Assembly (NCBI RefSeq): GCF_041886205.1
Contig: NZ_CP169029.1
Strand: one strand, 5' to 3'
Length of the DNA: 64,000 nt
Origin: Escherichia coli
Lineage (GTDB): Bacteria > Pseudomonadota > Gammaproteobacteria > Enterobacterales > Enterobacteriaceae
Shown one piece after another: positions 44,001 to 47,000 of this stretch (positions within the stretch are counted from its first letter, which is position 1; every line of letters begins with the position of its first letter). The position numbers were made by a program.

Positions 44001-47000
44001 CTAAAATGGCCCGGCACAACTCTTCATCTGTTATTGCATGAGACCTGGCTTCCCTTGCAAACCATTTGGTTTTAAACACGCGCATATCGTTGAGGTCCTG
44101 TTATTAAAGTATATCACCAAGTGCAATACTTTATCCCTTATTCCCAACCCAATCGCGAAAATGCATATCAGCTTGCCCTATGATTTTTATTTCTTCGAGC
44201 AGCCTCGAACTTTTCCCACAACACCGTAAAAGTTGCAAAAACGTTAAATGCGTCACACATTTCAATGTTAAAGTGGTCGGCTTTTCCCCTGAAACATGCC
44301 ACGGGTAACACCATGAGTGAATTTATTGCCGAAAACCGCGGCGCGGATGCCATCACCCGACCGAACTGGTCAGCCGTTTTCTCGGTGGCGTTTTGTGTCG
44401 CCTGTCTGATTATCGTTGAGTTTTTGCCCGTCAGTTTGTTGACGCCAATGGCCCAGGATTTAGGCATTTCGGAAGGGGTTGCCGGGCAATCGGTGACCGT
44501 GACCGCCTTTGTGGCAATGTTTGCCAGTTTGTTTATTACCCAGACAATTCAGGCCACTGACCGCCGCTACGTTGTTATTTTGTTTGCCGTTTTGCTGACG
44601 CTCTCCTGCTTGCTGGTTTCCTTTGCTAACTCATTCAGTTTGCTTTTAATCGGTCGTGCCTGTCTGGGACTGGCGCTGGGCGGGTTCTGGGCGATGTCGG
44701 CGTCGCTGACCATGCGTCTGGTACCGCCGCGTACGGTGCCGAAGGCGCTGTCGGTGATCTTCGGCGCGGTTTCTATTGCGCTGGTGATTGCCGCGCCGTT
44801 GGGCAGTTTTTTAGGCGAGCTTATCGGTTGGCGCAATGTCTTTAATGCGGCGGCGGTGATGGGCGTGCTGTGTATTTTCTGGATTATCAAATCATTGCCT
44901 TCACTGCCAGGCGAACCCTCGCATCAGAAACAAAATACTTTCCGCTTATTACAACGTCCGGGTGTGATGGCAGGGATGATCGCCATCTTCATGTCTTTCG
45001 CCGGACAGTTTGCTTTCTTCACATATATTCGCCCAGTGTATATGAACCTGGCGGGATTCAGCGTGGATGGCTTAACGCTGGTGCTGTTGAGTTTTGGCAT
45101 TGCCAGCTTTATCGGTACGTCGCTTTCGTCGTTCATTCTTAAACGTTCGGTAAAACTGGCCTTAGCAGGCGCGCCGTTAATACTGGCTGTGAGTGCGTTG
45201 GTGCTGACGTTGTGGGGAAGCGATAAAATCGTTGCTACCGGCGTGGCGATTATCTGGGGGCTGACTTTTGCATTGGTTCCCGTCGGCTGGTCAACGTGGA
45301 TCACCCGCTCGCTGGCCGATCAGGCAGAAAAAGCCGGGTCTATTCAGGTGGCGGTTATTCAGCTTGCTAATACCTGTGGTGCGGCAATCGGTGGTTATGC
45401 GCTGGATAATATTGGTCTGACTTCGCCGTTGATGTTTTCTGGCACATTGATGTTGCTGACTGCATTGTTGGTTACTGCAAAGGTGAAAATGAAGAAATCC
45501 TGATATCAGGTAAAGAAGCGTTGGTCAGTAGTTGTTGCTGTTCTTACATATCCGGGCATTCTACCTTACCCAACGCTTCCCAATAATTGCTCTGATTATT
45601 ACGTTCCATCGCCACGATGGCCTCGCGTATATGTTGTTTATTGTTTTCATCTGACAACATTAACTTTTCCCACGCTTCATCTGATAATGACGCCTGTGGC
45701 GTGCAAATTTTACGTAAATCTTGTAATACCGTGGTTTTCTCTTTTGCGGACTGCAGTGAGCTAAAAGGCGACTCGGCGTATACGATGCCTGGCATAGCGA
45801 AAAAAGTGAAAATAAGCAGTAGTGTCGTTGGTTTCATGGATTCAACCTTTTACAAATGTGTATCGAATGAAGCATAAGTGTAGTTTGCTTTCATCGCTCT
45901 CATCATGCTGTACGAAACGCGCTTGCGTGGTCAGTAAGAAGTGCCAGACTTTATATTCCACTTTTATTCCTTTTTATTCTTATCGATAGCGTTTCGTTTT
46001 TTAAACCGCAGCGACCTTACCGCTATAGTCAGGTAATCATTAATAAAAGGATAAAAAAATGAAACTGACAACACATCATCTACGGACAGGGGCCGCATTA
46101 TTGCTGGCCGGAATTCTGCTGGCAGGTTGCGACCAGAGTAGCAGCGATGCAAAACACATTAAAGTTGGCGTTATAAATGGCGCAGAACAAGATGTCGCGG
46201 AAGTCGCTAAAAAGGTGGCAAAAGAGAAATATGGCCTCGATGTTGAACTGGTAGGATTTAGCGGTTCGTTGCTACCGAACGATGCGACAAATCATGGCGA
46301 ACTTGATGCGAATGTCTTCCAGCATCGACCCTTTCTTGAACAAGATAATCAGGCGCATGGTTATAAACTGGTAGCGGTGGGAAATACGTTTGTCTTCCCT
46401 ATGGCGGGTTATTCCAAAAAAATCAAAACCGTGGCGCAAATAAAAGAAGGCGCGACAGTGGCGATCCCCAACGACCCGACCAACCTTGGTCGCGCACTTT
46501 TACTGTTGCAAAAAGAGAAGCTAATTACTCTGAAAGAGGGAAAAGGGTTATTACCTACCGCGCTGGATATAACCGATAATCCTCGTCATTTGCAGATTAT
46601 GGAACTCGAGGGGGCGCAGCTCCCGCGCGTACTGGATGATCCCAAAGTTGATGTAGCGATTATCAGCACCACTTACATTCAGCAGACAGGGCTTTCTCCG
46701 GTGCACGACAGCGTATTTATTGAAGATAAGAATTCGCCGTATGTGAATATTTTGGTGGCACGGGAAGATAATAAGAATGCAGAAAACGTGAAGGAATTTC
46801 TGCAATCTTATCAATCACCCGAAGTCGCTAAAGCGGCAGAAACCATTTTTAACGGTGGCGCGGTGCCTGGCTGGTAATTCTCACTCATGCCGCGCCGGAC
46901 GATTTATTTTTCTGGCGCGGCGACGGGAATCCATTGAAATCAAAATCACCGATGACAGAATCAGCAGCGTTCCCAGCCAGTCCGGTAATGTGAACGTGAT

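What the first reader, a model, noticed from the sequence alone, without database searches (positions are those of the whole stretch)
44105..44133. Candidate autoregulatory operator of the TA module
An 8-bp perfect inverted repeat TAAAGTAT-N13-ATACTTTA lies 20-48 nt upstream of the toxin start codon, where type II TA operons usually carry the antitoxin binding site.
Basis: inference. Interest (0 to 1): 0.25.

Follow-up and report, generated by a model that had tools for sequence, protein, structure and literature searches.

The report
Promoter-operator palindrome of HigBA2-type toxin-antitoxin

Summary
The 8-bp perfect inverted repeat TAAAGTAT-N13-ATACTTTA is at 44105-44133, 20-48 nt upstream of the toxin ATG (44085, minus strand). 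It is the outer part of a 29-bp near-palindrome (13-nt arms, 11/13, 3-nt centre, dyad 44119).

The module is a toxin-first type II pair. The toxin is PF06296 and the antitoxin is an HTH protein closest to Vibrio cholerae HigA2. It lies on an 840-bp cassette between yicN and nepI, present in about 1716 of 5426 complete E. coli genomes.

All 79 homologous loci with usable upstream sequence carry TAGCAC-N3-GTGCTA at the same place. Its right half doubles as an extended -10 (TGnTAnnnT). In non-enteric members a TTG -35 lies 17 bp upstream of the -10.

In the window this core is TTGCAC-TTG-GTGATA (plus strand 44112-44126). The antitoxin recognition helix is identical to that of relatives with the consensus core.

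One arm contains the -10 hexamer TATACT.

The operator role is therefore supported by comparison, with revised anatomy, and untested experimentally. This is an ordinary new member of a known kind.

The parts
44105..44133 (.). It is a 29-bp near-palindrome with 13-nt arms (11/13), a 3-nt centre and its dyad at 44119.
44112..44126 (.). Family-conserved operator core. On the minus strand it reads TTGCAC-TTG-GTGATA, against the family consensus TAGCAC-N3-GTGCTA (10/12). It is the inferred binding site of the antitoxin dimer.
   Evidence: Both half-site variants recur elsewhere: TTGCAC is the left half in 10 of 69 sequences, and TATCAC is the left half in 4 and the right half in 5.
44108..44116 (-). 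Inferred extended -10 element TGATATACT. The hexamer TATACT runs 44113 to 44108 and the TG is at 44116-44115. It overlaps the start-proximal arm of the palindrome.
   Evidence: Read directly. At the equivalent positions, 68 of 69 relatives have TG and 63 of 69 have TAnnnT. The generic promoter scan did not call it because the -35 is weak.
44131..44136 (-). The -35 position, 17 bp upstream of the -10. It reads GGATAA, a poor match. Non-enteric relatives have TTGxxx here.
   Evidence: This is an inference.
44096..44099 (-). Shine-Dalgarno AGGA, 10 nt before the ATG. Relatives conserve ACAGGA here. The transcription start is predicted near 44101-44102.
   Evidence: The transcription start is an inference.
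43726..44085 (-). Toxin gene, 119 aa, Pfam PF06296 'RelE' (HigB2-type).
   Evidence: E 8.8e-42. The AlphaFold model (pLDDT 87) best matches V. cholerae HigB2 structures 8a0x_D and 5jaa_D.
43419..43742 (-). Antitoxin gene, 107 aa, with a C-terminal HTH-XRE domain of the HigA2 type. It overlaps the toxin gene by 17 nt.
   Evidence: HigA2 5jaa, E 4.4e-10. In one search the match to 5j9i has rmsd 1.4 A, target-normalised TM 0.83 and 39-40% identity.
43379..44218 (.). An 840-bp cassette holding the toxin-antitoxin operon and its promoter region. It is present in about 32% of complete E. coli genomes and replaced by a 41-bp filler in the rest.

Best explanation
The palindrome centred at 44119 is the combined promoter and operator of a HigBA2-type type II toxin-antitoxin operon on the minus strand, with the toxin gene first. 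A dimer of the HTH antitoxin, alone or with toxin bound to its N-terminal part, is inferred to bind the inner half-sites TTGCAC-N3-GTGATA (family consensus TAGCAC-N3-GTGCTA). The start-proximal half-site is also the TGnTA of an extended -10 promoter (TGATATACT). Occupancy would therefore block RNA polymerase and autorepress the operon, as shown for V. cholerae HigA2. They contain the rest of the -10 hexamer on one side and its mirror image on the other. They share only positions 7, 9 and 11 from the dyad with the family pattern. The rest of their symmetry is specific to Escherichia and may add flanking or DNA-shape contacts. Shown here: the sequence anatomy, the family conservation, the protein homology and the population conservation. 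Inferred: binding, the transcription start and repression.
For: (1) The protein identities are established. (2) The repeat lies inside the cassette, 85 bp from its nepI-side border. (3) 79 of the 80 homologous loci could be examined, giving 69 non-redundant upstream regions from Gamma-, Beta- and Alphaproteobacteria and other groups. All have at least 10 of 12 matches to TAGCAC-N3-GTGCTA, in nearly all cases 27-47 nt upstream of the toxin start. (4) All 72 sites with at most 1 mismatch in 257 kb of these loci lie in that position, and none lies elsewhere. (5) The left half-site lies in the promoter spacer, where sigma-70 imposes no sequence constraint, yet it is as conserved as the right: C 69/69, A 69/69, C 67/69, G 60/69, A 53/69 and T 68/69. 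(6) The recognition helix NTSVSTVQKWESG is identical in E. coli and in enteric relatives with the consensus core, and S75, T76, K79, W80 and E81 are invariant. (7) Non-enteric members show TTGxxx exactly 17 bp upstream of the TAnnnT hexamer, which places the palindrome between the -35 and the -10 and over the -10. This is the arrangement footprinted for HigA2 (PMC11006873). (8) A distant Piscirickettsia plasmid homologue keeps the 6-N3-6 geometry with TATCAC and TATCAT half-sites and a -10 of TATAGT. (9) In E. coli, the 42-mer 44098-44139 is exact in 1693 genomes, against 99 for 44140-44181 and 289 for 44062-44103.
Against: There is no experimental binding, footprint or transcription-start evidence for this locus or any member of this subfamily in the papers searched. 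The generic sigma-70 scan finds no promoter in 43900-44400 because the -35 is poor. The right half-site's conservation could be due to promoter function alone. The E. coli core deviates from consensus at 2 of 12 positions and is not itself symmetric at positions 5 and 6 from the dyad. The population conservation is not corrected for shared ancestry.
Confidence: 0.75

Rival explanations
1. The two perfect 8-bp arms (TAAAGTAT and ATACTTTA) are themselves the recognition half-sites, read by HTH heads 21 bp apart or by two dimers, and the 13 bp between them is a passive spacer.
For: The arms are perfect. The Escherichia clade has 7 of 7 symmetric positions at 8-14 from the dyad, the highest value in the set. 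The expected probability from column composition is about 3.5e-4 per lineage. The arms are invariant in the 7 Escherichia-clade sequences examined.
Against: Relatives whose antitoxin recognition helix is identical lack these arms but keep the inner core. The 'spacer' holds the most conserved bases of the family. HigA2 and MqsA dimers read half-sites separated by only 5 and 3 bp (PMC11006873; PMC4894380). One arm is largely the -10 hexamer.
Confidence: 0.1
2. The conserved element is only a promoter, an extended -10 that is possibly bidirectional because a palindrome places TGnTA on both strands. It is not an antitoxin-binding site, and regulation occurs elsewhere or not at all.
For: GTGCTA contains TGnTA. 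The TAnnnT pattern is found on the toxin strand in 63 of 69 sequences and mirrored on the opposite strand in 36 of 69. In the window the plus strand reads TGCAATACT and faces nepI.
Against: The mirror-image hexamer is much less conserved than the left half-site itself. The opposite-strand neighbours differ among loci, so a conserved divergent promoter has no common target. The homologous antitoxin HigA2 is a proven operator-binding repressor at the same promoter position.
Confidence: 0.07
3. The outer 8-bp symmetry has no function of its own. It is either chance or the product of quasi-palindrome 'correction' by template switching around a functional inner palindrome. That mechanism is established knowledge and was not tested here.
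For: 8-bp inverted repeats are common in the window, at 37 dyads. Outer symmetry is weak across the family, where only position 9 exceeds expectation (z 3.8). The RNA hairpin is weak at -9.1 kcal/mol, lies upstream of the inferred transcription start, and matches no Rfam family.
Against: Seven of seven symmetric outer positions has a probability of about 3.5e-4 per lineage. The 42-mer is unusually invariant in the E. coli population, although that segment also contains the core and the -10.
Confidence: 0.08

Closest known systems
Vibrio cholerae HigBA2 and its operator (PDB 5jaa, 5j9i, 8a0x; PMC11006873, PMC5416850)
   Same: The gene order is toxin first. The toxin model's best structural matches are HigB2 chains. 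The antitoxin C-terminal HTH domain matches HigA2 with 39-40% identity, rmsd 1.4 A and E 4.4e-10. Both have a single inverted repeat located after the -35 and extending over the -10.
   Different: The operator sequence and spacing differ: TGTACGC-N5-GCGTACA in Vibrio against TAGCAC-N3-GTGCTA here. The base-contacting residues differ: HigA2 R68, E71, N72 and R77 align with S75, Q78, K79 and A84 (alignment). The toxins are only about 20% identical and undetectable by sequence search of the PDB. The N-terminal part of the antitoxin is predicted helical at moderate confidence rather than clearly disordered.
E. coli MqsA and its mqsRA operator, 5'-AACCT(N)3AGGTT (PMC4894380)
   Same: The HTH domain is related: Pfam MqsA_antitoxin at E 3.2e-6, TIGR03830 at E 4.6e-11, both below their cutoffs, and fold hits to 3gn5 and 3fmy. 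Both operators are short palindromes with a 3-bp central spacer. Both operons have the toxin gene first.
   Different: There is no N-terminal zinc-binding domain. The toxin family differs (PF06296, not MqsR). The half-site sequence differs. Scores are below the family gathering thresholds, so this is not an MqsA-family member.
Acinetobacter baumannii plasmid HigBA2 (PMC5906591)
   Same: It is a reverse-order HigB2/HigA2-type module in which the antitoxin, and more strongly the complex, represses its own promoter.
   Different: No operator was mapped there, and sequence relatedness to this module was not tested here.

Membership tests
HigBA2-type type II toxin-antitoxin module (PF06296 toxin plus HigA2-like antitoxin) | The toxin gene lies upstream of, and is translationally coupled to, the antitoxin gene. 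| tested here: met
   The toxin runs 44085 to 43726 and the antitoxin 43742 to 43419 on the minus strand, with a 17-nt overlap.
HigBA2-type type II toxin-antitoxin module (PF06296 toxin plus HigA2-like antitoxin) | The toxin belongs to Pfam PF06296 and has a RelE/BECR fold like HigB2. | tested here: met
   PF06296 at E 8.8e-42 and 142.6 bits against a cutoff of 27. The model has pLDDT 87, and its top PDB hits are HigB2 chains with TM 0.53-0.62. There is no sequence-level hit to HigB2 in the PDB.
HigBA2-type type II toxin-antitoxin module (PF06296 toxin plus HigA2-like antitoxin) | The antitoxin has a C-terminal HTH-XRE DNA-binding and dimerisation domain and an N-terminal toxin-neutralising region. 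| tested here: met
   HTH_3 at E 1.8e-9 over residues 52-96. HigA2 is the best PDB relative by sequence and by fold. The function and disorder of the N-terminal region were not tested; its pLDDT is 60-76.
HigBA2-type type II toxin-antitoxin module (PF06296 toxin plus HigA2-like antitoxin) | A single inverted-repeat operator lies between the -35 and the -10 and overlaps the -10. | tested here: met
   This holds by sequence and comparison only. The sequence and spacing differ from the Vibrio operator.
HigBA2-type type II toxin-antitoxin module (PF06296 toxin plus HigA2-like antitoxin) | The antitoxin binds the operator and autorepresses, and the toxin is a ribosome-dependent mRNase neutralised by the antitoxin. 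| not testable with these tools
   This needs EMSA or footprinting, reporter fusions, and toxicity and rescue assays.
MqsA-family antitoxin (TIGR03830 / PF15731) | The full-length protein scores above the family threshold, including the N-terminal CxxCG zinc domain. | tested here: not met
   PF15731 scores 27.7 bits against a cutoff of 30, and TIGR03830 scores 42.6 against 61.8. Only the HTH part aligns.
Sigma-70 extended -10 promoter | A TG lies one base upstream of a TATAAT-like hexamer with A at position 2 and T at position 6, at a suitable distance from the start codon. | tested here: met
   TGATATACT lies at 44116 to 44108, about 23 nt before the ATG. The pattern holds in 63-68 of 69 relatives. 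The transcription start is not mapped, and the generic -35/-10 scan was negative.
SehAB / K-12 HigBA (YgjN-YgjM) family | The antitoxin is homologous to SehB and E. coli K-12 HigA, which are roughly 140 aa. | tested here: not met
   SehB is 142 aa and aligns with K-12 HigA (PMC7160566). The protein here is 107 aa and of the HigA2 type.

The most novel reading that the evidence does not exclude
In the Escherichia lineage the family operator may have been remodelled into a 29-bp palindrome, with two different half-site variants and seven extra symmetric base pairs on each side. This could bind the antitoxin or the toxin-antitoxin complex in an altered mode, for example through flank or DNA-shape contacts by the N-terminal region, or through a second dimer. 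It could also create a mirror-image extended -10 (TGCAATACT on the plus strand) facing nepI, which would couple the purine-nucleoside efflux gene to the state of the toxin-antitoxin module. Separately, the near-invariant operator and recognition helix across bacterial classes would allow paralogous copies in one genome to cross-regulate each other.
Probability: 0.1. Interest if true: 0.45.

Novelty: new member of a known kind. Interest (0 to 1): 0.25.

Why it matters
If confirmed, it gives the promoter and operator of a widespread but uncharacterised E. coli toxin-antitoxin cassette, present in about a third of complete genomes including O157:H7. It also defines a family-wide operator consensus, TAGCAC-N3-GTGCTA, paired with an invariant recognition helix. 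That makes binding-site prediction and cross-talk between paralogues directly testable. It does not change the general picture of type II toxin-antitoxin autoregulation.

Tried and rejected
- **Generic promoter and terminator scan of 43900-44400.** It found no sigma-70 site and no terminator at the repeat.
- **Rfam at a permissive E-value.** Nothing matched at the palindrome. The only hits were a sub-threshold REP-related naRNA4 match at 43347-43438 and a spurious miRNA match.
- **RNA hairpin or terminator reading.** The hairpin is weak (-9.1 kcal/mol), has no T-run, and lies upstream of the inferred transcription start.
- **Cassette-end or recombination-site reading.** Rejected, because the repeat lies 85 bp inside the nepI-side border.
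- **Salmonella SehAB as the characterised homologue.** Rejected, because it belongs to a different antitoxin family.
- **PDB sequence and profile searches with the toxin.** They found no relative. Only fold comparison linked it to HigB2.
- **Literature searches.** Searches for the accession numbers and for the TAGCAC/GTGCTA motif with 'antitoxin' gave no description of this operator.
- **Looking for intermediate operator forms.** Toxin relatives at 87-91% identity were E. coli variants with the same operator.
- **Other copies of the core in the window.** One 2-mismatch site lies at 28512, which is no more than chance.
- **More distant plasmid homologues.** L085 (Rhizobium) and L087 (Klebsiella) were uninformative. 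One has a different upstream gene and the other is truncated by the record start.

Full report
**Observation.** The plus strand at 44105-44133 reads TAAAGTAT-ATCACCAAGTGCA-ATACTTTA. The 8-bp arms are perfect reverse complements separated by 13 nt. The toxin ORF is on the minus strand (44085 to 43726), so the repeat lies 20-48 nt upstream of its ATG. The exact pattern is unique in the window, and no shuffle produced it. The repeat finder shows that it is really a 29-bp near-palindrome with 13-nt arms (11/13) around a 3-nt centre and a dyad at 44119.

Such repeats are not rare as a class. There are 37 dyads with perfect 8-bp arms and a spacer of 0-20 in the window, against 19 +/- 4 in Markov simulations. 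About 3% of simulated 133-bp regions contain one.

**The genes.**
- The upstream ORF (119 aa) is Pfam PF06296 'RelE' at E 8.8e-42. Gerdes and colleagues list HigB2-named toxins in this family (PMC11980606).
- The downstream ORF (107 aa) overlaps it by 17 nt and has a C-terminal HTH_3 domain. It shows sub-threshold similarity to MqsA and NadS models.
- Its best PDB relative is V. cholerae HigA2, at E 4.4e-10.
- AlphaFold models support both assignments. The antitoxin C-terminal domain superposes on HigA2 (5j9i) at 1.4 A with 39-40% identity.
- The toxin model (pLDDT 87) has HigB2 chains as its top hits, although sequence searches of the PDB miss them.

**Genomic context.**
- The window is E. 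coli.
- The TA operon and its upstream region form an 840-bp cassette (about 43379-44218) between yicN and nepI.
- The cassette is present in 1716 of 5426 complete genomes and always on the chromosome.
- The other genomes have a 41-bp filler at this position.
- The repeat is inside the cassette, 85 bp from the nepI-side border. It therefore belongs to the TA module and not to nepI regulation.

**Comparative test.** An alignment of toxin homologues (A1) retrieved 80 loci from genomes of Enterobacterales, Beta- and Alphaproteobacteria and other groups, at 54-97% toxin identity. One locus (L035) had no upstream sequence, which left 79 loci and 69 non-redundant upstream regions.
- Every one contains TAGCAC-N3-GTGCTA with at least 10 of 12 matches, usually 33-47 nt before the toxin start.
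- All 72 sites with at most 1 mismatch in 257 kb of these loci lie there, and none lies elsewhere.
- Positions 2-7 from the dyad are nearly invariant on both sides.
- The right half-site is also an extended -10 element. TG is present in 68 of 69 sequences and TAnnnT in 63 of 69. The hexamers are TATAGT, TATACT, TACACT and similar.
- In non-enteric members a TTGxxx hexamer lies exactly 17 bp upstream of the -10, so the palindrome fills the spacer and covers the -10.
- The left half-site occupies the promoter spacer, where RNA polymerase imposes no sequence constraint. Its conservation as the mirror image of the right half argues for a dimeric DNA-binding protein.
- The antitoxin recognition helix (…YLNTSVSTVQKWESG…) is nearly invariant across the same loci, and in E. 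coli it is identical to that of the enteric relatives with the consensus core.
- A distant Piscirickettsia plasmid homologue keeps the 6-N3-6 geometry with TATCAC and TATCAT half-sites and has a second copy upstream.

**Where the window's site fits.** On the minus strand the window reads …GGGATAAAGTA-TTGCAC-TTG-GTGATA-TACTTTAATAACAGGACC…ATG.
- The core (plus strand 44112-44126) matches the consensus at 10 of 12 positions.
- Both deviating half-sites recur elsewhere in the family. TTGCAC is the left half in 10 of 69 sequences. TATCAC is the left half in 4 and the right half in 5.
Position 7 is core, and positions 9 and 11 are moderately conserved family-wide. Symmetry at positions 8-14 as a block (7 of 7) occurs only in the Escherichia clade.
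- The other 65 sequences show 0-6 symmetric positions there. The composition-based probability of 7 of 7 is about 3.5e-4.
- The start-proximal arm contains the -10 hexamer TATACT (44113 to 44108), preceded by TG (44116-44115). The -35 position reads GGATAA (44136 to 44131), which is poor.
- This explains why the generic promoter scan was negative.
- The inferred transcription start at about 44101-44102 and the AGGA at 44099 to 44096 give a short leader, like the conserved ACAGGA leader of relatives.

**Population evidence.** The 42-mer 44098-44139, which holds the palindrome and the -10, is identical in 1693 E. coli genomes. The adjacent upstream 42-mer is identical in 99, and the 42-mer over the start codon in 289. 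This indicates constraint on the promoter-operator segment. It is not corrected for phylogeny and cannot separate the arms from the core.

**Mechanism.** The best-supported model is autorepression by an antitoxin dimer bound to the inner palindrome, which occludes the extended -10. HigA2 was shown to bind a single inverted repeat (TGTACGC-N5-GCGTACA) that starts after the -35 and extends over the -10, with a 24-bp footprint (PMC11006873). The residues that contact bases in HigA2 (R68, E71, N72, R77) align with S75, Q78, K79 and A84 here. This is consistent with a different operator sequence. The 3-bp central spacer resembles the MqsA operator AACCT-N3-AGGTT (PMC4894380). Binding, the transcription start and repression are all inferred. 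No experiment on this subfamily was found.

**Rivals.**
- The literal reading, with the 8-bp arms as half-sites 21 bp apart, is unlikely. Relatives with the same recognition helix lack the arms but keep the core.
- A promoter-only or bidirectional-promoter reading cannot be excluded for the right half-site. It does not explain the mirrored left half.
- The outer symmetry may be functionless, arising by chance or by quasi-palindrome correction.
- RNA-hairpin, terminator, Rfam and cassette-border readings were rejected.

**Verdict.**
This is the operator-promoter region, but the determinant is the inner palindrome and not the flagged arms.
- It is a new member of a known kind.
- Interest is low to moderate.

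Noticed in passing
window 44083 (toxin start codon, minus strand 44085-44083): O157:H7 strain 7409 has C>T at 44083, which changes the toxin ATG to ATA. 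RefSeq then starts the toxin at the GTG two codons downstream (117 aa), so the family-invariant Arg2 is lost. 117-aa versions are common in the protein cluster. About 630 cassette-bearing genomes give no hit to the 42-mer centred on the start codon, which is consistent with this variant being widespread.
   Followed up: partly
window 43345-43378, and Rfam hit at 43347-43438: A REP-like element (GGATAAGACGTTCACGCCGCATCCGG) abuts the yicN-side border of the TA cassette. It gives a sub-threshold naRNA4 match (27.8 bits against a cutoff of 59.5).
   Followed up: partly
window 44195-44210: A second small palindrome, TTCGAG-CAGC-CTCGAA, is followed by CTTTTCC on the plus strand, just inside the nepI-side end of the cassette. 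It is also present in other Escherichia copies (L083). It may be a weak terminator or insulator between the TA promoter region and nepI. This was not tested.
   Followed up: no
window 44208-44214 / 44228-44234: A 7-bp perfect inverted repeat, AACTTTT-N13-AAAAGTT, straddles the cassette junction at 44218/44219. It is probably chance.
   Followed up: no
L022 and L033 (Erwinia mallotivora contig NZ_JFHN01000045.1, 13 kb apart); L054 and L057 (same MAG): Some genomes carry two paralogous copies of this TA family with essentially the same operator core and recognition helix. The antitoxins could therefore cross-regulate each other's promoters.
   Followed up: no
L086 (Piscirickettsia salmonis plasmid), 120 nt upstream of the toxin: Two tandem operator-like palindromes are present: ATATATCAT-TGA-ATGATATAT and TATATCAC-AAG-ATGATATA. 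The second overlaps a TATAGT -10. This is a two-site variant of the family architecture.
   Followed up: partly
L004 and L045 (contigs labelled MAG: Collinsella sp.): These roughly 1-kb contigs carry E. coli-type and Klebsiella-type copies of the module at 97% and 65% toxin identity. They look like enterobacterial contamination of an Actinobacteria bin.
   Followed up: no
window 44232-44262 (upstream of nepI, start 44313): The nepI upstream region shared by all strains contains TTGCAAAAACGTTAAATGCG and a direct repeat, AACGTTAAA and AATGTTAAA. These may be nepI promoter or regulator sites. They are unrelated to the TA operator.
   Followed up: no
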